This document shows, piece after piece, positions 3,498-64,000 of a stretch of 64,000 nucleotides of DNA. The stretch lies in sequence record MF327004; one strand, 5' to 3'. The notes under the pieces were generated by a model. That model saw nothing but the letters and a program-made list of their open reading frames with translations. It was not told the DNA's origin and made no database searches. The DNA comes from Shigella phage Sf17. Position 1 is the first letter of the stretch; the number at the start of each line of letters is the position of its first letter. The translations under genes were made by a program, and so were the position numbers.

Positions 3498-5733
3498 TGG
3501 CACAATATACAGTTGATAGTTTTATTGTTGAACTTGGATTCAGTGAAAAGGTTGTTAAGGGTTTGCAAAGAGTTGAGAAAATGGCTATGCAGTCTGCTCA
3601 ACGTATCGAACGTAATATCAATAAAGCCTTTGATGTGAAGCCTAATAGAAGTTCACAAGACGCTCTAAACAGACTTGTAAAAAACGCTCAGACTGCTTCA
3701 GGCAGAATCAATAAATCCCTAAACAATGCTATGAATTTAGATTCACAAGGTGTAAAATCACTTCGTAGATTAGAAACACAGGGTAAGAAAACAGCCAAAG
3801 AAATTAATAAGGCTCTAAGACAAGCTATGAATGTTGAAGGTAAAGTCAATGTTCGTGGTGGAGTTGGTAGAGGCCGTGGTAATACTATCCCTCCGGTTGG
3901 AGGTGGTGGTTCACCTAGAGTTAGACCTGATATTGCTCAAAGACAGATGGAAAGAATGTTTAATAACAACTTCTACTCTGGTTTGACTCGTCGTCTTGAA
4001 ACAATTGGTGGACAAGGTAACCAAATGGCTACTTCCTTCAGAGGAAGCTTACAAGGAATCTATAATAAGTACAAAGGTAGTGGTAAAGTTGGTGAGTATG
4101 AGATGGAAGTCAAGAAACTCATTGACACTACCAAACGTTGGGTTATTGCAGAAAATGCTAGACTTAAGGCAGTCAGAGAGTCAGCTTGGTTACAAGACAG
4201 AGCAAACTCTTCACTAAGACAGCTTGTAGGTGGTTTTGTTTCAGCGTATGCTATGCTGGAATTAGCTCAGAAGACTATTGATGCAGGTGTAAAGAGACAG
4301 TCTGCACAGTTAGCCTCAACAGCTATCTTTGGAGGGGATACACAGCAAGCTAGAATGTTCGCTGCTACGTTCTCTCACCAGATTGGTCAGAACTACACAG
4401 ACACTATGAAGCAGTACTCAAACTTCGCTGCTGGTGCTCAACCAGAGTTAGGTTTTAAAGGGACTCAAGAGTTCTATAAGAATGCTGCTATGTTCTCACG
4501 TATTCGTGGTGCTTCTGATGAAGACTTGAAAGGTATCATGGTTGCTTTCCAGCAAATGGCATCTAAAGGTAAGATTCAGGCTGAAGAACTTCGTGGACAG
4601 TTAGGTGACCGTTTGGCAGGTGCTGTTCAGTTATTCTCTGATGCTATTGGTAAAACTCCACAAGAACTTGACAAGATGATGAAAGATGGTCAGCTTCTTG
4701 CTAAAGACGTTCTACCAAAAGTCTCAGAAAAAATGAGAGAGCTTGTTGAAGCAGCAGGTGGTATGAATGCAGTTTCTAAGCAGACAGCCACCTCTATGGG
4801 TCAAGCAAAAGCTATGTGGGATAACACTCTTGTAGCACTTTTCAACAACTCTAGCGAAGGTATTTCACAACTCTCTAACTCAGTTGCAATGTTCTTGCAA
4901 GGTTCCCTTGGTACATCTGAAGCACTTGGTACAGGTATTGGTTACCTTTTAAAAGGTGCTAGTAACCTTCTAGACTTCGTGACAGATATCATGTACCGCA
5001 TTTCTTCATTGTACTATACCTCAATGGGCTATTTCAAGGAATTAGATGCTAGTCAACAGAAACTAATCAAGGATTCTGCTGAGTTAGTTGCTACGTTCAC
5101 CGCTATTGGTGTCTCAATTGCAGCTATTACAAAAGTCGCTAAAATCTTTGGTGGTACTGTAGCATTTGTCAAGAGTATCTTTGAAGAAGGTATCTTAGCT
5201 AAGATTGCACAGAAGTTTGGATTAACTACAGCAGCAGAAACAGCAGCTACAACGGCTGGTGTATCAGCAACCAGAATGGCTCTTGGTGTAGGTGGTTCTG
5301 CATTAATGTTATCTGGTTCAGTTGACAAGAATGCTGGAAAGAGATTTAACGAGGTTAACACACCTAATCCTTTCAATGAAGCTATCTCAGGAATCACTAA
5401 TCCAAAACGTCCAATGTTCTTTGACCAGAATGGACAACTTCAGTTTGCACAATATACCACAGACACTTCTGGAAATATTCAGAGAGTTGATAATGGTTTG
5501 TCAAATTGGGATATTATCATGAACAACCTGTCTGAGTCTCTAAATAACTTTGCAAACAAGTTTAACCAGACACCTATGATGATGACTCCTTCTGGACTAC
5601 CATTGCAAACTAAGCAGACGCTTCACGTTTCCTTTAATCTGGATGGTAAGCAGATTGCTACTAAGATGGTGGATATCACTGATAAGAGTCAGGAAGATAT
5701 TCTGTTAAACTCTAGCTACCCAGAGGATGAATA

Positions 5734-18911: not shown

Positions 18912-19211
18912 TTAATCTGCCAGCCTTAAGTTAAAGTTTACACCAAGTTTTGTACAAGCATTAAGCATGTACTCTAAAGAAATCTTTTGAGGGTCGTTAA
19001 TGATATTTGACACACGACTCTGTGAGATTTCACAAACAGTTGCTACTTGAGCCTGAGAAAGTTTTAGCTTCTCAATCTCTTTAGAGAATCTGAAAGATAC
19101 AAAATCTTTCATCTCTTCTATATCCATTGGACAGATATAACTCTCCATTTCCGCCTCTCTATCAGCCTCCCAAGAATCTTGAGGTGCATATGGGTCAAAG
19201 ACTTCATTCAT
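18912..19211 (-). CDS. helix-turn-helix domain protein (possible transcription regulator)
   Basis: Segment LKLSQAQVATVCEISQSRVSNII resembles an XRE/Cro-type HTH. Confidence 0.4.
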   Translation of the reverse strand: MNEVFDPYAPQDSWEADREAEMESYICPMDIEEMKDFVSFRFSKEIEKLKLSQAQVATVCEISQSRVSNIINDPQKISLEYMLNACTKLGVNFNLRLAD

Positions 19212-52731: not shown

Positions 52732-52756
52732 GGGGCTGCTTCGGCAGCCTTTTTTA
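52732..52756 (+). terminator. rho-independent terminator (UUCG tetraloop)
   Basis: GGCTGC-TTCG-GCAGCC followed by T6. Confidence 0.6.
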
Positions 52757-52757
52757 T

Positions 52758-52785
52758 TTGAAAAATGTGCAGGTTAGTGTATAAT
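52758..52785 (+). promoter_or_regulatory. sigma70-type promoter TTGAAA-16-TATAAT
   Basis: Consensus -10 TATAAT; spacer contains TGTGCAGGT, the core of the 56.9-57.2 kb repeats. Confidence 0.5.
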
Positions 52786-56108: not shown

Positions 56109-56903
56109 ATGGGTATCGTAAAAATTATTAAAGGTGATATCTTTAAAGACTTTGATGGTAAGAAGTTTGATATCATTGGTCACGGTTGTAACTGCATGAA
56201 CTTGATGGGTTCAGGTATCGCAGCAACAATTGCTAAACGCTACCCAAAAGCTTATGAAACTGACGCTGAGGTTTATGCTACAGTAGGTGGTGAAAATCAT
56301 AACCCTAAGCACCTAATGCTTGGTAACATCTCTGTAGCACGTTTTAAGCAGGGTCGGATTGCTAACCTTTATACTCAGGTTATCACTGGCAAAGATGCAC
56401 GGTACAATGCTTTAGAAGCAGCTTTGCAGCGTCTGAATAATTACTGCAAAGTCAACCAACTTAAGAAAGTTGGGCTTCCTATGATTTGTGCAGGGATTGG
56501 TGGTCTTGATAGTATGGCTGTGCTGTCCATTATTAATCAGACTATGAAAGATGTTGACGTATATATGTATGTCTATGAAGATAAGATGTACAGTCAGTTG
56601 ACTAGTCCTGTTACTGGTTGGGAGAACTTCAGTGAGCCTCAATATTTTGATGGTGTTGCTGTGGTAGGCAAGGATAAAGTTACCCTCAAGGTGAAGCGTA
56701 ATGGCAAGGTACACACCAGTTACCCTCCGGTTGAGAAGTACAATCGAAGTAACGCTCAAGTTACCCACCCGTTACAAGGTCACCACCACAGAGCGGTAAC
56801 GTTTGGTGATGATGCAAGTGTGTATATCAATGCGACTACAGAAGAGTTTGCAGAAGATTATATCACACATGAAAACGTAAACTATGTTGAAGCACGTAAC
56901 TAA
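56109..56903 (+). CDS. macro-domain protein (Poa1p-like ADP-ribose-phosphate phosphatase family) with C-terminal extension
   Basis: ATG 56109; motifs KGDIFK, DIIGHGCNC, GSGIAATIAKRYP, GLPMICAGIGGLD parallel yeast Poa1p (IHSCNC ... GGGIAYQLALRYP); about 100 extra C-terminal residues. Confidence 0.5.
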   Translation: MGIVKIIKGDIFKDFDGKKFDIIGHGCNCMNLMGSGIAATIAKRYPKAYETDAEVYATVGGENHNPKHLMLGNISVARFKQGRIANLYTQVITGKDARYNALEAALQRLNNYCKVNQLKKVGLPMICAGIGGLDSMAVLSIINQTMKDVDVYMYVYEDKMYSQLTSPVTGWENFSEPQYFDGVAVVGKDKVTLKVKRNGKVHTSYPPVEKYNRSNAQVTHPLQGHHHRAVTFGDDASVYINATTEEFAEDYITHENVNYVEARN

Positions 56904-56930
56904 TAAGTTACCCAGATAAACATAGACAAG

Positions 56931-57156
56931 CCCTCCAAAGTTTGAGTTTAAAATCTCAGGTAAGGGGGGCTTTTTCATTTTAAATTTGTGCAGGTATAGT
57001 TGCATAGAACTCTGGACAGATTTCTTTAGCTGAACTCCAAAGGGAAAATTCATTTCAAATTTGTGCAGGTTTAGACTCCAAAGAGCTTTTTCATTTTCAA
57101 TCTGTGCAGATGCAGTTGGACTCCAAAGGGAAAATTCATTTTCAAATTGTGCAGGT
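56931..57156. repeat. tandem direct repeats (4 copies, about 36-bp unit at 41-45-bp period)
   Basis: CTCCAAAG-N-TTCATTT(T)CAAAT(T)TGTGCAGRT at 56931/56971-56995 (split copy), 57035-57070, 57076-57111, 57121-57156. Confidence 0.65.
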
Positions 57157-57173
57157 AGGTAGCTGTAGGAAAC

Positions 57174-57208
57174 CAGCCCCACCATCCCCTCTTACTCCCC
57201 TTCCTCCC
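57174..57208. other. C-rich polypyrimidine tract
   Basis: AGCCCCACCATCCCCTCTTACTCCCCTTCCTCCC, G-free on + strand, directly after the repeat array. Confidence 0.4.
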
Positions 57209-57250
57209 AAAAGTCAAGAGAAAAATTTGTAGAGAACTGAAAAATAATTC

Positions 57251-57279
57251 TTGACTAGATTTCTGTTTTAGTGTATTCG
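57251..57279 (+). promoter_or_regulatory. possible sigma70-type promoter (TTGACT-17-TATTCG)
   Basis: Good -35, weak -10. Confidence 0.3.
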
Positions 57280-57329
57280 CATACGTGCGTTCTATTCACG
57301 AAACATCAAAAATATTTTAAAAATTTTTG

Positions 57330-57358
57330 TTGACTTCATAAATCCAGTCTTATAGTAT
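57330..57358 (+). promoter_or_regulatory. sigma70-type promoter TTGACT-17-TAGTAT
   Basis: In AT-rich region; followed by CATCAACGGGAAACATCCC hairpin and the conserved leader CAATCCTAAACTGGAGAATCTAAAAATG. Confidence 0.5.
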
Positions 57359-57407
57359 TTGCATCAACGGGAAACATCCCAACAATCCTAAACTGGAGAA
57401 TCTAAAA

Positions 57408-57614
57408 ATGTTATATCAACGTGAGTTAATGATTGTTGACAACAACAAAACAAATAAACGTCGTTTCTATATGCTAATTTGTGATGTTTGGCAACGTATC
57501 TCAGAAAAGGATTTTGATGAATATGTTGATACGTCAATCAGGTCTGATTGTTATTTGACAACTCATACAAGACAGTTTACAAGGCATACAGCAATTTATT
57601 ATTATAACGTTTAA
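57408..57614 (+). CDS. hypothetical early protein
   Basis: 68-aa ORF behind conserved leader/SD CTGGAGAATCTAAAAATG. Confidence 0.45.
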   Translation: MLYQRELMIVDNNKTNKRRFYMLICDVWQRISEKDFDEYVDTSIRSDCYLTTHTRQFTRHTAIYYYNV

Positions 57615-57619
57615 AGTGC

Positions 57620-57648
57620 TTTACATGGGGTTTAAAAGCTAGTATATT
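57620..57648 (+). promoter_or_regulatory. early-cassette promoter TTTACA-17-TATATT
   Basis: Spacer starts TGGGG, -10 followed by AAGCCCCA (inverted repeat spanning the -10), then conserved leader. Confidence 0.5.
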
Positions 57649-57698
57649 AAGCCCCAGATAAAGAGCTTTACCAACAATCCTAAACTGGAGACTCTAAA

Positions 57699-58079
57699 AT
57701 GAAATATCGTGCGCCTAAATTTATCAACAAAGAAAACTTTCGTAGTATCTTAGAAGAAACTATGAAAGAAAACTTCAAAGGAAAAATAATTGTTGTTCAC
57801 GCTTACAATTTTAAGTATGATGTTAATGGTAACCGTATTAACCACTACAAAGCTACTATGCTTGACGGTACATTATCCGGTGAAAAAGCTATCATAAATG
57901 CTATTGCAGGACGTGGTAAAACTGTGATACGATGCGAAAAAAGACGCTATCAAGGCGGTAAATATGGGTATGAAGATGCAATGTACCATCTTGATAAAAT
58001 GGGGTATGATGTAGAGAAAGCTGGAGTATCTCAAACTATTGGTAGTGACGGCTACGTTACAGTTTTCAAAATTAACTAA
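57699..58079 (+). CDS. hypothetical early protein
   Basis: 126-aa ORF behind conserved cassette leader. Confidence 0.45.
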   Translation: MKYRAPKFINKENFRSILEETMKENFKGKIIVVHAYNFKYDVNGNRINHYKATMLDGTLSGEKAIINAIAGRGKTVIRCEKRRYQGGKYGYEDAMYHLDKMGYDVEKAGVSQTIGSDGYVTVFKIN

Positions 58080-58088
58080 ATAAAGTCC

Positions 58089-58117
58089 TTTACATGGGGT
58101 TTATAATTAGATAAGAT
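58089..58117 (+). promoter_or_regulatory. early-cassette promoter TTTACA-17-TAAGAT
   Basis: Same cassette architecture. Confidence 0.5.
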
Positions 58118-58170
58118 AAGCCCCAGATAAAGAGCTTTACCAAACAATAACCTAAACTGGAGTATCAAAA

Positions 58171-58428
58171 ATGGCTACTATCAAAAACATCATTGTATCT
58201 GCAAAATCTCGTGATGACGCTCGCGCAACTGCTAAAAAATTAAATGGTAAGGTGGTTGACAACGGAAAAGAATCTGCTGTAAGATGGGGCGTAAAATGTG
58301 ATAAGGAAATTACTTTAAAACGTAGTTCCTATGACCTTTTCAAAGGTGTAAAAGCAATCGGTAGAACTAACGTCTACACGAAGAAAGGTTATAAAATGCA
58401 CTTATCATTAACTGACAATTTAATCTGA
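58171..58428 (+). CDS. hypothetical early protein
   Basis: 85-aa ORF behind cassette leader. Confidence 0.45.
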   Translation: MATIKNIIVSAKSRDDARATAKKLNGKVVDNGKESAVRWGVKCDKEITLKRSSYDLFKGVKAIGRTNVYTKKGYKMHLSLTDNLI

Positions 58429-58436
58429 TAAAGTGC

Positions 58437-58465
58437 TTTACATGGGGTTTATAGTTAGATAAGAT
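58437..58465 (+). promoter_or_regulatory. early-cassette promoter TTTACA-17-TAAGAT
   Basis: Same cassette architecture. Confidence 0.5.
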
Positions 58466-58519
58466 AAGCCCCAGATAAAGAGCTTTACTAACCAATAGTC
58501 CTAAACTGGAGAATCTAAA

Positions 58520-59032
58520 ATGAATTTTGTTGAAGCTACCTTTGAAGTTCAAAAAGAAAAATTCACTATCATCTATGAAGCTGTTAATATTTGTGAAGCA
58601 TCCCATTGTGTGGAAAATTGGAAGTTTACCGATGAGCACAAAGGCGGGGTTACAATCAAACTTAAAAATCCAGAGCGTAACGGGTACAAATATGCAATTC
58701 CACAGCATTACAGCCTTTCACAATTGATGAGTGATTATGCTAAACAAGGCCGCGAAAATCCATCTATAGAGGCTTACAAGAGCTTACAAGATGAATTACA
58801 AAGAGATTTAGAGGCTAACAGCTACGTGCTATTTGCAAAGGTAGAAGATAAAGAAGGTAATACAGTATTAAATAGCTTTTCTCTTGCTTATGGCTTCGAT
58901 TGGTGCTATCTTGACGGGGAAGATTTAGATTCACGATTAGAAGAGGAAGTGTCGAACTCCGATGGAGAATCTGAAGTAATGGAACGTTTAGAAGCCTTGA
59001 AAGATTCTGTTATGAATATCTTTAATATCTAA
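58520..59032 (+). CDS. hypothetical early protein
   Basis: 170-aa ORF behind cassette leader. Confidence 0.45.
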   Translation: MNFVEATFEVQKEKFTIIYEAVNICEASHCVENWKFTDEHKGGVTIKLKNPERNGYKYAIPQHYSLSQLMSDYAKQGRENPSIEAYKSLQDELQRDLEANSYVLFAKVEDKEGNTVLNSFSLAYGFDWCYLDGEDLDSRLEEEVSNSDGESEVMERLEALKDSVMNIFNI

Positions 59033-59037
59033 AGTGC

Positions 59038-59066
59038 TTTACATGGGGTTATCAAGTTGATAAGAT
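59038..59066 (+). promoter_or_regulatory. early-cassette promoter TTTACA-17-TAAGAT
   Basis: Same cassette architecture. Confidence 0.5.
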
Positions 59067-59115
59067 AGCCCCAGATAAAGAGCTTTACCAACAATCCTAA
59101 ACTGGAGAATCTAAA

Positions 59116-59412
59116 ATGTTTATTGCCGCAAACGTTAGAACTAAATTAAGCCAGCTATTAAGTAATATTCAATTCATTGAATCCATGCGCCGTACTTCTG
59201 AAGCCGTAGAGTGGTATCATGGAAAGATTAACAAAAAAGAAGTAATAATTTGTGTATGGAACTTTTGCAAAGAATACAAAAAACCATTGCTTCAGGTTGA
59301 TATATATGATAACACTAATAAGTCATCGATTAAGACTACTAGAGATATGGTTGATTCATATGAAATTAGTCACACTGGTAAACTATTTCACAAAGGCGTG
59401 AACAAATGTTAA
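59116..59412 (+). CDS. hypothetical early protein
   Basis: 98-aa ORF behind cassette leader. Confidence 0.45.
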   Translation: MFIAANVRTKLSQLLSNIQFIESMRRTSEAVEWYHGKINKKEVIICVWNFCKEYKKPLLQVDIYDNTNKSSIKTTRDMVDSYEISHTGKLFHKGVNKC

Positions 59413-59780
59413 TCACATACACTGCAATTTTTATCTCTATTGTGGCGCTCTATAAAGCCTTGCAAGCGCACAGTATAGCTAATAAGGCACTTACAAGGGA
59501 TTTAAAAATAAATCTTGTACGGGGCTTTTTAGAGCGTTTGAGCTTAGAACAATTGAAACGTTTAGAGATGAGCTTTCGATTCAAAGCAGAAACATACCGG
59601 ATTGATAACATCCTAGATGGTGATTTTAAATTAATCAGTGATTATGACATACTTCTTGAGTCAATTCAAGATATAAACCTGAAAGATTATTATATCGTGA
59701 TAGCGCAAGAAATTAATAAAAAAGAGCTTGCAATGCGGGGCAAGATAGAAGCCCCAACAATCCTAAACTGGAGAATCTGA
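59406..59780 (+). CDS. hypothetical early protein
   Basis: 124-aa ORF with hydrophobic N-terminus; its 3' end encodes a leader-only cassette copy (59748-59782). Confidence 0.4.
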   Translation: MLITYTAIFISIVALYKALQAHSIANKALTRDLKINLVRGFLERLSLEQLKRLEMSFRFKAETYRIDNILDGDFKLISDYDILLESIQDINLKDYYIVIAQEINKKELAMRGKIEAPTILNWRI

Positions 59781-59782
59781 AA

Positions 59783-60055
59783 ATGTATACTACTAATGAC
59801 GGTCGAACTTTGAACGTAACTTTAAAACACTATATAGACGGTGTATTAAACTTTGAAGAGTTAAGAGCAGAACAGCACCTATTAGATTGGCAAGTAGCAG
59901 GTTTACAAAAACCCGCCACAGGATATGGAAAGAAAATTCCTACATCTTGGAAAGTTCGATACCTTGGAAAGTTACGCAGAATTTATCAAGATGTTTATAG
60001 TAATAGCGGTGTAAGTTACATTATTGTTAGCGGTAAAAAATTGTATTTAGTCTAA
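59783..60055 (+). CDS. hypothetical early protein
   Basis: 90-aa ORF behind leader-only cassette copy. Confidence 0.45.
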   Translation: MYTTNDGRTLNVTLKHYIDGVLNFEELRAEQHLLDWQVAGLQKPATGYGKKIPTSWKVRYLGKLRRIYQDVYSNSGVSYIIVSGKKLYLV

Positions 60056-60063
60056 TAAATTGC

Positions 60064-60092
60064 TTTACATGGGGTTATCAAGTTGATAAGAT
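60064..60092 (+). promoter_or_regulatory. early-cassette promoter TTTACA-17-TAAGAT
   Basis: Same cassette architecture, leader variant AACCTAAACTGGAGACTAGAAAATG. Confidence 0.5.
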
Positions 60093-60144
60093 AGCCCCAG
60101 ATAAAGAGATTTATCTAAAACTAACCTAAACTGGAGACTAGAAA

Positions 60145-60552
60145 ATGACTAATGTTAATCACAAAGAAGTTGCAATTTTGAAAGCACGTTTGACCATTAA
60201 CCGCATCAACATTGTAACATCAGCAGCACCAGACGAAACACTACATAATATCATCGGTAAAATTCAGGGCGCAGTAGTAGACACAAAACAGCTTAAAGAA
60301 TCCTTGCAAGATGTAGCAGCAGGAGCTATAATTGACGGTGCTCAGTATGAGATGAAAGAAATGCTGTCAAAGTCAAAAGTAATGAATAAAGAACTTGACT
60401 TGAAAATGTTTAGATTTGCTGTTAAAGTGTGGCTATGTGTTGATTTTGATGCAAACTTTGCAATTGCTGATTTCTTTGCAACATGGTTACAGCGTAACTT
60501 ACCGGTTGAAGTTTTCCGTGAAATCTGCGATGCAATTTATTCAGAGATTTGA
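60145..60552 (+). CDS. hypothetical early protein
   Basis: 135-aa ORF behind cassette leader. Confidence 0.45.
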   Translation: MTNVNHKEVAILKARLTINRINIVTSAAPDETLHNIIGKIQGAVVDTKQLKESLQDVAAGAIIDGAQYEMKEMLSKSKVMNKELDLKMFRFAVKVWLCVDFDANFAIADFFATWLQRNLPVEVFREICDAIYSEI

Positions 60553-60581
60553 TTGACATTGCAAAAGCATAGTAGTAGAGT
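60553..60581 (+). promoter_or_regulatory. sigma70-type promoter TTGACA-17-TAGAGT
   Basis: Begins immediately after preceding stop; followed by ACTCATCAACGGGGCAAG motif. Confidence 0.5.
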
Positions 60582-60658
60582 ACTCATCAACGGGGCAAGC
60601 TGATACATGCCGACTCTTAACACAACTTGATAACCTTGGCAAGCCGTTTTTATATCAT

Positions 60659-60826
60659 ATGCCAGATAACACTGCAAAAACTTACAGTTACATTGTAAAC
60701 CGTTTTACGGCTTATGGTTCAAAGTATGGCTATAATGTCAAGACTCAAAAAGTGACTTTGTTCACAAGTATTGAAGAGTTACCAACTGTTGCCGTTAAAC
60801 TAATCTTTACAAAGAAAACTAAATAA
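60659..60826 (+). CDS. possible small ORF
   Basis: 55-codon ATG ORF downstream of promoter 60553-60581, no clear SD; below ORF-track cutoff. Confidence 0.25.
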   Translation: MPDNTAKTYSYIVNRFTAYGSKYGYNVKTQKVTLFTSIEELPTVAVKLIFTKKTK

Positions 60827-60831
60827 AGTGC

Positions 60832-60860
60832 TTTACATGGGGTTTATAGTTAGATAAGAT
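60832..60860 (+). promoter_or_regulatory. early-cassette promoter TTTACA-17-TAAGAT
   Basis: Same cassette architecture. Confidence 0.5.
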
Positions 60861-60910
60861 AAGCCCCAGATAAAGAGCTTTACCAACAATCCTAAACTGG
60901 AGAATCTAAA

Positions 60911-61468
60911 ATGAAATGCTTTCATGGTACTACACAAGAAAACTTTGTAAACCTTATCAATGGCGGTGATAAACCATCAGGAGCTTGGAATTGCTCTGAT
61001 ATGGATGGATGTTTTTACGTCTACCCTGTTAACAAGTTCTATGATGTAGAGAATCTGGATGACGAACAAATCACAGATGAAGGTATTAGAAACGCGCTTG
61101 ATAGCGCAAGCATTACAGCAGCCTATCAAATGAAGTCACAAAAGCTTGTTATCTTGGAACTGGATATTCCAGAAGATGATTTACAAGATGACTGGAGCTG
61201 TGAGAACATGAGCGACGTAGCAAGCTTTACAGAATATTTCGATAAAGAATGGATTAAAAAGGTTTACACAACTGAATTTAATGCTATGTATGCACCTTTC
61301 TTTGTCCCTAACCTAAACAATAGAAATTTAGGATATGTACCAGACGAACTACGCAACATTGCAGAAATAGTCCAACGTAGTGATGGGATGAGTAATGTAT
61401 ATTGTGATATCTTTGACACCATGCAATGCAACGTAACAGAAACGGTTATAAACGACTTAACAGCATAA
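60911..61468 (+). CDS. hypothetical early protein
   Basis: 185-aa ORF behind cassette leader. Confidence 0.45.
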   Translation: MKCFHGTTQENFVNLINGGDKPSGAWNCSDMDGCFYVYPVNKFYDVENLDDEQITDEGIRNALDSASITAAYQMKSQKLVILELDIPEDDLQDDWSCENMSDVASFTEYFDKEWIKKVYTTEFNAMYAPFFVPNLNNRNLGYVPDELRNIAEIVQRSDGMSNVYCDIFDTMQCNVTETVINDLTA

Positions 61469-61531
61469 ACCATAGAATCACACCAGTTCACTAGAAAAGC
61501 CCCGCACAGGGGCTTACAAGAGGCTTAAAAG

Positions 61532-61762
61532 ATGCTTACAACAATCTATCTTATCTTATCTATCTGCAATGGTTCACAATGTGACTTTAAAGGTTTAGAA
61601 GAGTTTACAGGTAGCGAAAATAATGCTATTGTTGCTTGTCAGATAGCAAGGCAAGACTACCCTACATCAGATGATATCCAATGTTACTATAAATCAGAAG
61701 ATGAATACGGGATTTATTTTGATAGTGTGAATGGTGATTATGAAATTCTTATAGAAAAGTAG
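61532..61762 (+). CDS. hypothetical early protein
   Basis: 76-aa ORF with AAGAGG SD, preceded by hairpin AAGCCCC-gcaca-GGGGCTT. Confidence 0.4.
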   Translation: MLTTIYLILSICNGSQCDFKGLEEFTGSENNAIVACQIARQDYPTSDDIQCYYKSEDEYGIYFDSVNGDYEILIEK

Positions 61763-61791
61763 TTGACACTGAAAACGCAAACCAGTAGAGT
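61763..61791 (+). promoter_or_regulatory. sigma70-type promoter TTGACA-17-TAGAGT
   Basis: Begins right after preceding stop; followed by ACTCATCAACGGGGCAAG and cassette leader. Confidence 0.5.
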
Positions 61792-61847
61792 ACTCATCAA
61801 CGGGGCAAGTTAGAAGCCCCAACAATCCTAAACTGGAGATTCAAAAA

Positions 61848-62069
61848 ATGTTGCAAGTTCTTAACGTAAAAACCATTGATTTTAAATTCTCAAATGTTCG
61901 TCGTACCTATTTACAACCGTTTAATAACCCTGTTAGAATTCCCAATGATGACGCTAAAAAGTTGATTGATGAAATTCTAGCTAATGGCGGTTATCTGGCT
62001 AGTCATAAGCAGTATAATGATGAGGCTGGAAGCCTGATAAATGAGTTTACATATTATTACTACAAATAA
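61848..62069 (+). CDS. hypothetical early protein
   Basis: 73-aa ORF behind cassette leader. Confidence 0.45.
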   Translation: MLQVLNVKTIDFKFSNVRRTYLQPFNNPVRIPNDDAKKLIDEILANGGYLASHKQYNDEAGSLINEFTYYYYK

Positions 62070-62081
62070 CTAATAAAGTGC

Positions 62082-62110
62082 TTTACATGGGGTAAACTGG
62101 AGAATCTAAA
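62082..62110 (+). other. truncated early cassette (-35 and GGGG joined directly to SD)
   Basis: AAAGTGCTTTACATGGGGTAAACTGGAGAATCTAAAATG: the -10, CCCC arm and leader body are missing. Confidence 0.5.
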
Positions 62111-62308
62111 ATGTTATCACTGATGCAAAAACTTTCTACCTTGTGGTGTTTAAAAGGTGTAGAGTGTAACCTTAACATGGAAGGTTCAAAGATAGACCTA
62201 AAAATAGTATACAATGGAGAAATACTATTCTCACAGAATAGCAGTCATCCACACTTCAAAGATAATGCAATTATGGCCGTGAATAATCTGATGGATAGAA
62301 TTTATTAA
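62111..62308 (+). CDS. hypothetical early protein
   Basis: 65-aa ORF behind truncated cassette. Confidence 0.4.
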   Translation: MLSLMQKLSTLWCLKGVECNLNMEGSKIDLKIVYNGEILFSQNSSHPHFKDNAIMAVNNLMDRIY

Positions 62309-62313
62309 AGTGC

Positions 62314-62342
62314 TTTACATGGGGTTTAAAAGCTAGTATCTT
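62314..62342 (+). promoter_or_regulatory. early-cassette promoter TTTACA-17-TATCTT
   Basis: Same cassette architecture, weaker -10. Confidence 0.45.
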
Positions 62343-62393
62343 AAGCCCCAAAGAAAGAGCTTTACCAACAATCCTAAACTGGAGAATCTGAAA

Positions 62394-62735
62394 ATGGCCT
62401 ATGTAACAATTATCACCGATAAAGAAAATTCGTCATGGTCTACCCAAGTTAACGACAAAATGAAACCTATGCAGTGTCTCAAGTACTTTGAGCAATGGAA
62501 CAGGGGAGAAGATGTAAGCCCGTTTCAAGTGATGCAGATTGTACATGTTGACAATGAAGGGAATAAAACTACCCTTAACACTGAATACTATGCTACACGT
62601 TTCGAAACTCGCAAATCAGCTATGCAGGAGTTAAGAGAAAAGGGATATAGTCACATTGCCGCGCTCATTTGGTCTGATTTGCTTAAAAAACAGTCATTAA
62701 CCTATGTTAAGCCAGAAAAAATCTTTATAAGCTAA
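62394..62735 (+). CDS. hypothetical early protein
   Basis: 113-aa ORF behind cassette leader. Confidence 0.45.
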   Translation: MAYVTIITDKENSSWSTQVNDKMKPMQCLKYFEQWNRGEDVSPFQVMQIVHVDNEGNKTTLNTEYYATRFETRKSAMQELREKGYSHIAALIWSDLLKKQSLTYVKPEKIFIS

Positions 62736-62862
62736 TCAACAACTTATAAAAATCTTTTGAAAAACTATTGACAATGCCCCTTGACAAGTGTAACTTTGTT
62801 CGAGGGGGTTTATCTAAAAGGGATTAACTTAATAGATTCTTTATAGATAAGCGTAAAAAGTA

Positions 62863-62891
62863 CTTGCAAAGGTCTAATCATATCTATATAG
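62863..62891 (+). promoter_or_regulatory. sigma70-type promoter TTGCAA-17-TATAGT
   Basis: Upstream of leader TTCCTAAACTGGAGAATCACTAAATG. Confidence 0.45.
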
Positions 62892-62931
62892 TATCTTCAA
62901 AAGGCAACTTCCTAAACTGGAGAATCACTAA

Positions 62932-63063
62932 ATGTTAGATATCATTAAAAACCCTATCCTTTGCGGTATGATTGTTTCTGTTGTGTTGCCATTAGCAATG
63001 CTCATCATTGGTGAAATCTCAGATAAACTTTTTGATAAAAAACTAGGGAGACTTCCCCACTAA
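62932..63063 (+). CDS. small hydrophobic peptide
   Basis: 43-codon ORF MLDIIKNPILCGMIVSVVLPLAMLIIG... behind cassette leader; its last codons are the GGGAGACTTCCCCACTAA element. Confidence 0.35.
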   Translation: MLDIIKNPILCGMIVSVVLPLAMLIIGEISDKLFDKKLGRLPH

Positions 63064-63092
63064 AACAAAATTCCTAAACTGGAGAATCTAGA

Positions 63093-63620
63093 ATGAATAA
63101 GTTTAATGCTGTTAATGCAATCCGTAGCCGTGAAGTGATGAGCAAGCCTTGTAAAGATACTTGGGAATTTACCTTAAAGAGCAAAGTTTTTGCAGTTATC
63201 ACAAAAGGGGAAGATAAGAAGTTTTATGTACACCGACCAAATGTAAAAGCGGTAACAGCCAACAACTTTATGGGGGCTATTTCTCTTATTCTGAATGATT
63301 ATATGGCTATAGTCGCAGAAATTCACGAAATGGCTATTAAGGCAACTAAAAACGAGTTAAACCGCTTTAAAATGGCTTATGAGCGCTCTATTAAGTCCCA
63401 TAATCTTTTTATTGCAATCCACTATACAGGCATGTATGCTATGGGAACGGGTAACCAACAATACCCACTCTATGAAGTGGAAAACATCTTTACAAGTGAC
63501 TACCCAACAACTAATTTTAAAATTACGTTAGGGGAAGCATTAAGTAGGGGAATTAGGCTTTACGAACAATCTTTAAAAAACTTAGAAAATTCCCTTGACG
63601 AAATCATCACAAATCTATAA
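63093..63620 (+). CDS. hypothetical early protein
   Basis: 175-aa ORF behind cassette leader. Confidence 0.45.
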   Translation: MNKFNAVNAIRSREVMSKPCKDTWEFTLKSKVFAVITKGEDKKFYVHRPNVKAVTANNFMGAISLILNDYMAIVAEIHEMAIKATKNELNRFKMAYERSIKSHNLFIAIHYTGMYAMGTGNQQYPLYEVENIFTSDYPTTNFKITLGEALSRGIRLYEQSLKNLENSLDEIITNL

Positions 63621-63623
63621 AGT
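63595..63623 (+). promoter_or_regulatory. sigma70-type promoter TTGACG-17-TAAAGT inside 3' end of ORF 63093-63620
   Basis: Followed by ACTTATCAACGGGGAGGGAGACTTCCCC hairpin and leader. Confidence 0.45.
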
Positions 63624-63685
63624 ACTTATCAACGGGGAGGGAGACTTCCCCACTAAAACAAAATTCCTAAACTGGAGAATCTAGA

Positions 63686-63952: not shown

Positions 63953-64000
63953 TACTTTCAACGGGGAGGGAGACTTCCCCACTAACCTAAATTCCTAAAC

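What the first reader, a model, noticed from the sequence alone, without database searches (positions are those of the whole stretch)
56931..57208. Tandem ~45-bp direct repeats (GTGCAGGT core) plus C-rich tract immediately upstream of the early promoters
Four copies of CTCCAAAG-(N)-TTCATTT(T)CAAAT(T)TGTGCAGRT at 41-45-bp spacing (56931-57156; first copy split by a hairpin-containing insert), then a 35-nt G-free tract (57174-57208), then AT-rich DNA with two TTGACT promoters. The TGTGCAGGT core also sits in the spacer of the promoter at 52758-52785. The region lies between the macro-domain gene and the early small-ORF cluster and is non-coding. The arrangement resembles iteron-type origins or a clustered transcription-factor binding site.
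Basis: seen in the sequence. Interest (0 to 1): 0.6.

Follow-up and report, generated by a model that had tools for sequence, protein, structure and literature searches.

The report
Conserved four-repeat DNA array in Felix-O1-like phages
Just upstream of its early genes this Felix-O1-like phage has four copies of a two-part DNA motif, kept in every related genus examined, that most likely binds an unidentified protein; its function is unknown.

Summary
The window is a Mooglevirus (99.4% identical to Shigella phage Sf19). Four same-strand units lie at 56971-57156. Each has an A/T run, TCATTT(T), six free bases, then GTGCAG(G/A)T. They start at the intrinsic terminator of the macro-domain gene and lie 100-300 bp upstream of the early-gene promoters.

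The array is an undescribed hallmark of the subfamily Ounavirinae. It sits at the same place in Felixounavirus, Suspvirus and Mooglevirus, with 39-45-bp and 73-77-bp spacing. Erwinia phage Fifi318 (Kolesnikvirus) also has it, as GTGCATA, although most of the surrounding non-coding DNA no longer aligns.

The motif occurs five times in about 90 kb. The fifth copy (52750-52774) covers the -35/spacer of an extended -10 promoter after rIIB, and is conserved in most enteric relatives examined.

Tests gave no support for coding, a structured RNA, tandem sigma-70 promoters, DnaA boxes, a GC-skew switch or a Rep-type initiator. The known genome end of a relative lies several kb away.

Best reading (about 0.45): clustered sites for an unidentified sequence-specific DNA-binding factor that controls transcription at module boundaries. 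An origin (about 0.18) remains possible. Moderately interesting; the function needs experiments.

The parts
56930..56975 (+). Intrinsic terminator of the macro-domain gene operon: hairpin GCCCTCC...GGGGGGC followed by T5. Its T-run is the A/T run of unit 1.
   Evidence: The fold shows the hairpin. The 3' arm AGGTAAGGrGGGC plus T-run is invariant or nearly so in relatives, and the 5' arm varies while pairing is kept. It is annotated as a terminator in phages Barry and XTG1.
56971..56995 (+). Unit 1: TTTTTCATTTTAAATTTGTGCAGGT (GTGCAG at 56988-56993)
   Evidence: conserved in all relatives
57034..57070 (+). Unit 2: ACTCCAAAGGGAAAATTCATTTCAAATTTGTGCAGGT (GTGCAG at 57063-57068)
   Evidence: This unit is missing in a minority of relatives: 5 of 32 phages have three units, including VpaE1_ev035 and ECML-1.
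57075..57111 (+). Unit 3: ACTCCAAAGAGCTTTTTCATTTTCAATCTGTGCAGAT (GTGCAG at 57104-57109)
57120..57156 (+). Unit 4: ACTCCAAAGGGAAAATTCATTTTCAAATTGTGCAGGT (GTGCAG at 57149-57154). It lies 45 bp from unit 3 in every enteric relative.
   Evidence: The Felix O1 version of this unit is 31/34 identical to unit 3 of Erwinia phage Fifi318 (sequences).
57177..57212 (+). C-rich, G-free tract. Its complement (57177-57208, minus strand) is the only canonical G-quadruplex motif in the 64-kb window. The core GCCCACCnTCCCCTCTwAC is also present in Fifi318. The tract is absent from the Barry/Mushroom/SP116/REP10 group.
57209..57256 (.). Block that is nearly invariant in the enteric genera: AAAAGTCAAGAGAAAAATTTGTAGAGAACTGAAAAATAATTCTTGACT. 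It holds the inverted repeat AGTCAAGA(N29)TCTTGACT, that is, two back-to-back TTGACT hexamers around an A/T-rich core. It is not conserved in Fifi318.
57330..57358 (+). Main early promoter TTGACT-17-TAGTAT, preceded by an A/T-rich upstream stretch. It drives the first small early ORF (57408).
   Evidence: conserved in relatives; Fifi318 has the equivalent TTGACT-17-TATATT
52750..52785 (+). Fifth copy of the motif: TTTTTTATTTGAAAAATGTGCAGGT, directly after the rIIB terminator (about 52732-52755). It fills the -35/spacer of an extended -10 promoter (TGTATAAT, hexamer 52780-52785) for the operon that runs from the signal-peptide gene (52793) through the polynucleotide kinase and spanin genes to the macro-domain gene.
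   Evidence: The same site is in Felix O1 at 3520-3537 and in 13 IMG/VR relatives, where ATTTG, TGTGCAG and TGTATAAT stay fixed and the bases between them vary.

Best explanation
The four units are clustered recognition sites on double-stranded DNA for one sequence-specific DNA-binding factor. The factor is most likely phage-encoded and has not been identified.

Each unit offers two fixed contact patches, (A/T)5-TCATTT and GTGCAG, separated by six free bases. That is about one and a half helical turns, and all units point the same way. The array begins exactly where transcription of the rII-lysis-macro operon terminates. It ends 100-300 bp upstream of the promoters of the terminal cluster of small early genes. 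A fifth site covers the -35/spacer of the promoter at the head of that same upstream operon.

Inferred mechanism: when the factor occupies these sites it sets transcription at the two module boundaries. At the fifth site it would repress or replace -35 recognition. At the array it would form a multi-protein complex that insulates, shuts off or boosts the early promoters.

Shown: the sites, their conservation pattern, their positions and their genome-wide uniqueness. Inferred: that a protein binds them, and the direction of the effect.
For: (1) Conservation has the shape of a protein footprint. In 62 distinct units from 32 phages, ATTT and GTGCA carry 2.0 bits per position, while the N6 spacer and the flanks vary (alignments).

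(2) The array survives where most of the surrounding non-coding DNA has diverged beyond alignment. Erwinia phage Fifi318 (macro-domain protein about 34% identical, primase-helicase 71%) has four units at the same place.

(3) The motif is rare and strand-specific. It occurs exactly five times in about 90 kb, always on the + strand and always in intergenic DNA. Felix O1 has the same five sites in its first 22 kb. Fifi318 has the four array units plus one dissimilar match inside a coding region in 44.5 kb.

(4) The fifth site lies in a promoter whose -35 hexamer is not conserved. The motif and the extended -10 TGTATAAT are conserved there.

(5) Spacing is tightly kept: 45 bp between units 3 and 4 in all enteric relatives, 39 or 41 between units 2 and 3, and 73-77 between units 1 and 2 in the 27 relatives with four units.

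(6) The second half-site shifts from GTGCAGGT to GTGCATAG between the enteric and Erwinia phages. This fits a co-evolving phage factor better than a shared host factor. No array was found in any Enterobacterales genome.

(7) RNA-level and coding readings failed. Fold z-scores are 0.10 and -0.02, Rfam gave no credible match, and relatives carry frame-breaking indels.
Against: No binding protein was identified. The neighbouring genes and 16 early ORFs scanned have no Pfam or PHROG function. The one HTH protein found (18915-19211, minus strand) is an XRE-type protein, and such proteins usually bind palindromes rather than direct repeats.

The array units lie too far upstream of the robust early promoter for ordinary activation or repression: unit 4 ends about 176 bp before its -35. 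They carry no -10 element at the spacing seen at the fifth site.

The fifth site was not found in Fifi318, and it was absent from two or three enteric relatives that had enough upstream sequence.

Such deep conservation is more typical of sites read by core machinery (replication, packaging) than of sites for fast-evolving regulators.

No transcriptome or binding data for this phage group were found in the literature searched.
Confidence: 0.45

Rival explanations
1. Replication origin. The four direct repeats act like iterons that recruit a phage replication factor. The adjacent A/T-rich promoter region melts, and the G-rich/C-rich tract stabilises an R-loop or primer, as in origins activated by transcription.
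For: There are four same-orientation repeats with roughly helical phasing next to A/T-rich DNA and strong promoters. Very deep conservation would fit recognition by conserved core replication proteins; the primase-helicase is 71% identical between genera. The only G-quadruplex-type tract in the window abuts the array. Origins of T7-like replisomes are promoter-linked (established knowledge for T7, from my own knowledge and not checked here).
Against: There is no GC-skew inflection at 57 kb; skew follows gene direction. No DnaA box lies within one mismatch. No Rep/O/alpha-type initiator was found among the neighbouring and early genes scanned, and the helicase-primase is the T7 gp4 type, which needs no iterons. 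The unit period of 39-45 bp is twice that of classical iterons. The flanking DNA is no more A/T-rich than the whole early region. The C tract is missing in one clade. A fifth copy inside a promoter for a signal-peptide protein with a weak, sub-threshold transglycosylase (SLT) match is not the autoregulated initiator gene expected for iteron systems.
Confidence: 0.18
2. Genome-entry checkpoint. The array marks the inner boundary of the terminal block of early genes and pauses DNA delivery there until early proteins are made, by analogy with the injection stop signal of phage T5.
For: The array always bounds the terminal cluster of small early genes. That cluster runs to the non-coding region holding the 613-bp direct terminal repeat found in Felixounavirus Ro111lw (PMC6454146). 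The block is about 5-9 kb by my estimate, or roughly 6-10% of the genome, compared with 7.9% first-step DNA in T5 (bioRxiv 10.1101/866236). T5-like phages also conserve an untranslated repeat region more strictly than the neighbouring ORFs. In Fifi318 the units are one mismatch from a DnaA box.
Against: The enteric phages have no DnaA box within one mismatch in the region. The array has none of the nested palindromes or inverted repeats of the T5 signal. Nothing in the papers found reports two-step entry for Felix O1-like phages. Which end enters first is unknown, and the early genes are transcribed towards the end, not away from it. The fifth site inside a promoter is unexplained by this model.
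Confidence: 0.06
3. Tandem weak promoters, or decayed terminator-promoter cassettes. The units would be duplicated copies of the terminator-plus-promoter module seen at 52732-52785, with little present function beyond unit 1.
For: Unit 1 and the fifth site both follow a terminator. Unit 1 scores as TTTTCA-17-TATAGT (9/12). In several relatives a TAnnnT hexamer follows GTGCAGG in units 1 and 2.
Against: The invariant bases fall in what would be the spacer, while the would-be -10 hexamers are the variable part and often lack the final T. Fifi318 units have no -10 at any sensible spacing. Decayed duplicates would not keep number, order and spacing across four genera.
Confidence: 0.1
4. RNA-level element. 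The array would be transcribed, either leftward from the TTGACT on the minus strand at 57212-57217 or rightward by read-through. It would then act as an unstructured RNA, for example a protein sponge, or with the C-rich tract as a Rho loading site.
For: A minus-strand TTGACT-17-TAAGAG (TAGCCT in the Barry group) is conserved in the enteric genera. The + strand RNA would be unstructured and would end in a 36-nt G-free, C-rich stretch, which is rut-like.
Against: Neither strand folds better than shuffles (z 0.10 and -0.02). Rfam gave no credible match. The leftward promoter is absent in Fifi318 and its -10 is poor. The C tract is missing in one clade. The fifth copy sits upstream of a transcription start, so it cannot act as RNA from that promoter.
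Confidence: 0.08

Closest known systems
Operator or regulator-site clusters in phage control regions, for example the four p4 sites between the early and late promoters of phage phi29, or P2 Cox boxes (recalled from my own knowledge, not tested here)
   Same: Several same-sequence sites for one small DNA-binding protein are packed into a few hundred bp of intergenic DNA at the junction of temporal gene classes. A further site overlaps a promoter.
   Different: No binding protein is known here. The sites are asymmetric direct repeats with a 39-45-bp period rather than dyads or contiguous boxes. Most sites do not overlap a promoter.
Iteron-type replication origins (lambda ori with O protein; plasmid Rep-iteron origins; P4 ori/crr with alpha protein)
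   Same: Four directly repeated protein-sized motifs, all in one orientation, lie beside A/T-rich DNA. As with P4 ori and crr, a related site lies about 4.2-4.9 kb away in most relatives.
   Different: No initiator gene, no DnaA boxes and no skew signal were found. The period is twice the usual 20-22 bp. The replisome is the T7 type, which in T7 starts at promoters without iterons.
Injection stop signal region of T5-like phages (Davison, bioRxiv 10.1101/866236)
   Same: It is an untranslated repeat region conserved more strictly than the neighbouring small ORFs, at the inner edge of a terminal block of host-takeover genes.
   Different: The T5 region is about 1.2 kb of nested palindromes and inverted repeats with paired DnaA boxes, inside a 10-kb terminal repeat. 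Here there are four simple direct repeats, no DnaA boxes in the enteric phages, and a terminal repeat of only about 0.6 kb several kb away. Two-step entry is not known for these phages.
T4 middle promoters (MotA box at -30 plus a sigma-70 -10 element)
   Same: At the fifth site a conserved non-sigma motif occupies the -35/spacer position of a promoter that keeps a strong (extended) -10 element.
   Different: There is only one such promoter per genome rather than dozens. The array units lack a -10 element. No MotA or AsiA homologue is annotated in Felix O1, according to its authors (PMC3185647).

Membership tests
Iteron-type replication origin | Three or more direct repeats of one motif in one orientation | tested here: met
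   Four units on the + strand, spaced 75, 41 and 45 bp. The period is about twice that of classical iterons.
Iteron-type replication origin | A cognate initiator (Rep/O/alpha-type) encoded nearby or elsewhere in the genome | tested here: not met
   Neighbouring genes and 16 early ORFs have no Pfam or PHROG DNA-binding or Rep domain. The helicase-primase is Toprim plus DnaB_C and the polymerase is family A. Not every ORF in the genome was scanned.
Iteron-type replication origin | Adjacent, distinctly A/T-rich unwinding element and/or DnaA boxes | tested here: not met
   GC is 0.29-0.34 to the right of the array, the same as the rest of the early region. No DnaA box lies within one mismatch in 56900-57420 or in the Felix O1 array.
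Iteron-type replication origin | Strand-composition switch at the origin | tested here: not met
   Cumulative GC skew rises steadily through 57 kb. Switches occur only where gene direction changes, at about 15-16 kb and 27 kb. Skew is a weak test in phages.
Iteron-type replication origin | Origin activity | not testable with these tools
   This needs marker-frequency sequencing, 2D gels or a plasmid replication assay in infected cells.
Clustered transcription-factor or operator sites | Fixed recognition bases with free spacer and flanks across relatives | tested here: met
   ATTT and GTGCA carry 2.0 bits per position while N6 and the flanks vary, in 62 distinct units from 32 phages.
Clustered transcription-factor or operator sites | Sites overlap or adjoin promoter elements | tested here: inconclusive
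   The fifth site covers the -35/spacer of TGTATAAT. The array units lie about 95-280 bp upstream of the first TTGACT and about 175-360 bp upstream of the scan-grade promoter.
Clustered transcription-factor or operator sites | An identified binding protein | not testable with these tools
   No candidate emerged. This needs DNA pull-down, EMSA or ChIP.
Tandem sigma-70 promoters | -35 and -10 hexamers conserved, 16-18 bp apart, with a free spacer | tested here: not met
   The invariant bases lie in the would-be spacer, and the would-be -10 hexamers vary and often lack the final T.
Structured non-coding RNA | Stable fold, covariation, or a match to a known family | tested here: not met
   z = 0.10 (minus strand) and -0.02 (plus strand). 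Rfam gave only two chance-level microRNA matches, both elsewhere in the region. Only the terminator hairpin is supported.
T5-type injection stop signal | Paired DnaA boxes within nested inverted repeats and palindromes in the terminal untranslated region | tested here: not met
   There are no DnaA boxes in the enteric arrays. The inverted repeats found are short and imperfect. The array is not inside the terminal repeat.
Terminal-repeat or packaging-site repeats | Location at or beside the physical genome ends | tested here: not met
   In Felixounavirus Ro111lw the 613-bp direct terminal repeat lies in the convergent non-coding region beyond the early cluster, about 0.7 kb past the right end of this window. 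The physical ends of a Mooglevirus itself were not checked.
Intrinsic terminator (for 56930-56975 only) | G+C-rich hairpin followed by a T-run, at the end of a gene | tested here: met
   The hairpin plus T5 starts 27 nt after the macro-domain gene's stop codon. It is conserved with pairing kept and is annotated as a terminator in two relatives.

The most novel reading that the evidence does not exclude
The array, with the adjacent C-rich box, is a cis-acting checkpoint read by conserved phage or host core machinery rather than by an ordinary regulator. One version is a signal that pauses genome entry at the inner edge of the terminal host-takeover gene block, which would be two-step DNA delivery in a contractile-tailed phage. 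The other is the long-unknown replication start site of Felix O1-like phages.
Probability: 0.2. Interest if true: 0.7.

Novelty: new member of a known kind. Interest (0 to 1): 0.5.

Why it matters
Felix O1 and its relatives are classic typing phages and widely used biocontrol phages. Its genome paper states that how their transcription is timed is not known (PMC3185647), and the papers searched describe no replication start site.

This array is the most deeply conserved non-coding element I saw in the region. It sits exactly at the junction between the rII-lysis-macro operon and the host-takeover genes. It therefore gives a defined, mutable handle of five sites and two short half-motifs for finding the missing regulator or initiator.

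It is also a practical landmark. It marks the left edge of the variable early-gene cluster, which is where engineered payloads or deletions are most likely to be tolerated.

Tried and rejected
- Coding on the minus strand (annotated as hypothetical proteins in Moogle, Mordin, Silverhawkium and Fifi318): rejected. Relatives differ by 2- and 4-nt indels, and unit spacings (73/75, 39/41, 37) are not consistently multiples of three.
- Structured RNA: rejected.
- Repeats beside the genome ends, or a packaging site: rejected for Felixounavirus, because the Ro111lw record carries its 613-bp terminal repeat elsewhere. The unverified TH10 record happens to end at the equivalent of 57254. I treat that as an assembly break.
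- DnaA boxes: none within one mismatch in the enteric arrays.
- Host-genome counterpart: one scan of 185,579 species genomes for two spaced units gave 44 hits, none in Enterobacterales.
- Known host-factor consensus sequences (IHF, Fis, CRP, Fur, ArgR, marbox, sigma-54, sigma-E, Ter, ops): compared from memory only. None fitted both half-motifs, and this is not a formal test.
- Type I restriction target (EcoKI AAC-N6-GTGC): the first half does not match.
- Array in more distant relatives: Pakpunavirus K8 has no intergenic gap after its macro-domain gene.
- Candidate binder: Pfam and PHROGs on 16 early ORFs and several neighbours gave nothing.
- Literature searches for Felix O1 transcription start sites, transcriptomes or origins found nothing relevant.
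- An IMG/VR outlier (L028) has two similar non-coding repeats upstream of what, by ORF sizes alone, looks like a packaging and head gene operon. It has no similarity to any phage in the collection searched, so I could not tell homology from chance.

Full report
IDENTITY OF THE WINDOW. The region 56700-57500 is 99.4% identical to Shigella phage Sf19 and 90-98% identical to other Mooglevirus and SUSP1-like phages. The window corresponds to about the last 64 kb of the Sf19 record. In Sf19 and Mordin the ORF ending at 56903 is annotated as a macro-domain protein. It closes a co-directional run of genes that includes polynucleotide kinase and the spanins. The next gene (57408) opens a run of small ORFs of unknown function.

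THE OBSERVATION.
- Tandem Repeats Finder reports 57034-57155, period 45, score 131, the best score in the window.
- The repeat finder places four copies in register at 56953, 57028, 57069 and 57114, with spacings of 75, 41 and 45.
- The 22-mer TTCATTTTCAAATTGTGCAGGT with up to 3 mismatches hits four times, against none in 100 shuffles.
- TGTGCAGGT occurs a fourth time at 52766, in the spacer of TTGAAA-16-TATAAT.

Four small corrections apply.
- The G-free run is 57177-57212 (36 nt, 21 C).
- The CTCCAAAG assigned to 'copy 1' is the 5' arm of a terminator hairpin.
- The first TTGACT (57251) has no acceptable -10 hexamer (TATTCG) and was not called by the scan. The second (57330-57358, TTGACT-17-TAGTAT) was called.
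- The stretch is non-coding. Relatives differ by 2- and 4-nt indels, and unit spacings are not consistently divisible by three.

CONSERVATION. A sensitive BLAST of 56905-57260 finds 254 phage records, all Ounavirinae by name or genus. In Felixounavirus the match is almost always the same length (299 bp) at 71-80% identity, comparable to the flanking coding DNA at 72-76%.

I aligned 16 phages and then made a profile of 31 distinct sequences. These show where the constraint lies:
- the 3' arm and T-run of the terminator;
- in each unit, an A/T run, then TCATTT(T), six unconstrained bases, then GTGCAG(G/A)T;
- in the enteric genera only, a 48-nt block just before the first TTGACT.

Across 62 distinct unit variants from 32 phages, ATTT and GTGCA are invariant (2.0 bits per position). 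Twenty-seven phages have four units and five have three. Spacings are (73, 39, 45) in 19 phages and (75, 41, 45) in 5. The last interval is 45 in every enteric phage.

A DISTANT GENUS. Erwinia phage Fifi318 (Kolesnikvirus) has a macro-domain protein only about 34% identical and a primase-helicase 71% identical to those of the window. Directly after its macro-domain gene terminator it has four direct repeats, spaced 37, 37 and 39 bp, of W5-YATTTT-N6-GTGCATA.

In a four-way alignment, the units and a short C-rich box (GCCCACCnTCCCCTCTwAC) are the clearest conserved elements. The 48-nt block is not conserved. One Fifi318 unit is 31/34 identical to Felix O1 unit 4, including the flank GGTC(G/T)GGCAAG. 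The array is therefore ancestral to the subfamily. Pseudomonas phage K8 (Pakpunavirus) has a macro-domain gene but no intergenic gap or array after it.

GENOME-WIDE DISTRIBUTION. I scanned the window plus the remaining 26.5 kb of Sf19. [TC]ATTT-N5-8-GTGCAG occurs exactly five times, always on the + strand: the four units and 52755-52772. Felix O1 has the same five sites in its first 22 kb. Fifi318 has only the four array units plus one dissimilar match inside a coding region in 44.5 kb.

The fifth site follows the rIIB terminator and precedes a gene for a signal-peptide protein with a weak, sub-threshold SLT-domain match. In 13 further relatives from IMG/VR the fifth site reads CTTTTTTATTTG-N6-TGTGCAG-N5-TGTATAAT. 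The variable parts differ between phages and there is no conserved -35 hexamer. Two or three relatives with enough upstream sequence lack it.

WHAT IT IS NOT.
- Structured RNA: fold z-scores are 0.10 and -0.02, and Rfam gave no credible match. Only the terminator hairpin is supported.
- Tandem sigma-70 promoters: the invariant bases fall in the would-be spacer and the would-be -10 hexamers vary.
- An element at the genome ends: the Felixounavirus Ro111lw record carries its 613-bp direct terminal repeat at both ends, as reported in PMC6454146. That repeat lies in the convergent non-coding region beyond the early cluster.
- DnaA boxes: none within one mismatch in the enteric arrays. The Fifi318 units come within one mismatch only because of their GTGCATA variant.
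- A copy of a host locus: none was found in Enterobacterales genomes.

ORIGIN HYPOTHESIS. The anatomy (direct repeats, A/T-rich DNA, promoters) is compatible with an origin, but every test available here was negative or neutral.
- GC skew follows gene direction and does not turn at 57 kb.
- The flank is no more A/T-rich than the rest of the early region.
- No initiator-like protein was found near the array or among the early genes scanned.
- The replisome is the T7 type: Toprim plus DnaB_C helicase-primase and a family A polymerase. In T7, from my own knowledge, such a replisome starts at promoters without iterons.

One fact keeps a promoter-linked origin alive. The complement of the C-rich tract is the only canonical G-quadruplex motif in the window and in the other Sf19 and Felix O1 DNA scanned. 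G-rich non-template DNA next to a promoter favours R-loops. However, the tract is absent in the Barry/Mushroom/SP116/REP10 group.

BEST EXPLANATION. The footprint-like conservation, the rarity and strand bias of the motif, and its presence in a promoter's -35/spacer point to one thing. So does the shift of the second half-site between host groups. Together they indicate clustered sites for a single sequence-specific DNA-binding factor, probably phage-encoded, acting on transcription at module boundaries.

The array begins at the end of the rII-lysis-macro operon, and the fifth site sits at that operon's promoter. To the right of the array the genome changes character. GC drops from 0.39 to 0.35. 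Thirteen copies of the translation-start cassette TCCTAAACTGGAGA and seven promoter-in-hairpin cassettes occur only there.

I put this reading at about 0.45. The binder is unidentified, most units are too far from a promoter for textbook regulation, and such deep conservation would also suit core machinery. Rivals: origin 0.18, decayed or weak tandem promoters 0.10, RNA-level element 0.08, and a T5-like entry checkpoint 0.06 (compared with bioRxiv 10.1101/866236). The remainder is unassigned.

NOVELTY. The Felix O1 genome paper lists direct repeats of at least 24 bp. The repeats it names do not include this array, and it states that temporal control of transcription is unknown (PMC3185647). 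Some GenBank records annotate the hairpin as a terminator or call spurious ORFs across the array. I found no description of the array in the papers searched. It is a new, well-defined member of a familiar kind of element (clustered direct-repeat protein sites). Its function can only be settled experimentally.

Noticed in passing
window 57177-57208 (minus strand): GGGAGGAAGGGGAGTAAGAGGGGATGGTGGGG is the only canonical G-quadruplex motif (four runs of at least three G, loops of 1-7 nt) on either strand of the 64-kb window. Felix O1 has its only such motif (within 1-22 kb) at the same place, and Sf19 1-26.5 kb has none. Ten of 200 shuffles of the window contain any such motif.
   Followed up: partly
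window 57386-63678 (+ strand): There are thirteen copies of TCCTAAACTGGAGA (up to 2 mismatches; 0.65 expected), most of them just upstream of the start codon of a small early ORF, and none elsewhere in the window. This is a shared leader and ribosome-binding cassette confined to the early cluster. It is annotated as a 14-bp repeat_region in phage Mordin.
   Followed up: partly
window 57619, 58088, 58436, 59037, 60063, 60831, 62313 (+ strand): There are seven copies of CTTTACATGGGG..., a TTTACA-17-TAAGAT/TATATT promoter embedded in a GGGG...CCCC hairpin, between early ORFs. They correspond to the 57-bp direct repeats reported for Felix O1 (PMC3185647). They resemble the promoter stem-loop cassettes described for T4-type phages (from my own knowledge).
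   Followed up: partly
window 57209-57256: This 48-nt block is nearly invariant in all enteric Ounavirinae examined. It is built as the inverted repeat AGTCAAGA(N29)TCTTGACT, that is, two divergent TTGACT hexamers around an A/T-rich core. Neither hexamer has a good -10 partner (TATTCG rightward, TAAGAG leftward). The block is not conserved in Erwinia phage Fifi318.
   Followed up: partly
L028 6253-6320 (IMG/VR contig 3300018080_002802, 10.2 kb): An unrelated, unclassified viral contig has two non-coding direct repeats, GGAGGCAATTTAAAAAyCAATCATTTTAACATAGTGCAGTG. They lie upstream of what, by ORF sizes (151, 543, 127, 535, 92 and 330 aa), looks like a small-terminase, large-terminase, portal and capsid operon. 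I could not tell whether this is the same motif or chance.
   Followed up: partly
L003/L004 (Ro111lw ends) and L020 12300-13930 (Felix O1); just beyond window position 64000: The convergent non-coding region of about 1.6-2.3 kb that holds the 613-bp direct terminal repeat is packed with short repeats (CTTGTTAG, CTGTTAAG, CTATAGAG). The window's own TRF hits at 58772 and 61511 (GCTTACAAGA) look related.
   Followed up: no
A1 columns 285-366 (Barry, Mushroom, SP116, REP10): One Felixounavirus clade replaces the C-rich tract with unrelated sequence. The G-rich start of that replacement (GGTGGGTGTAGGTGGGGCTG) is, in reverse complement, identical over 10 nt (CAGCCCCACC) to the start of the Mooglevirus C tract. 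This may be a small inversion (11 of 1000 shuffles score as well).
   Followed up: partly
L005 (Escherichia virus TH10, MT446388, unverified record): The record ends at the equivalent of window 57254, inside the invariant block just before the first TTGACT. This is probably an assembly break, but it was the only record seen to end in this region.
   Followed up: no
Its target is unknown, and nothing links it to the array.
   Followed up: partly
PQ051114 (Fifi318) record layout: Its authors set base 1 from PhageTerm output (PMC11984208). The record starts and ends next to the tRNA cluster, not in the convergent non-coding region where Ro111lw has its terminal repeat. So the position of the physical ends may differ between genera, or one of the calls is wrong.
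   Followed up: no
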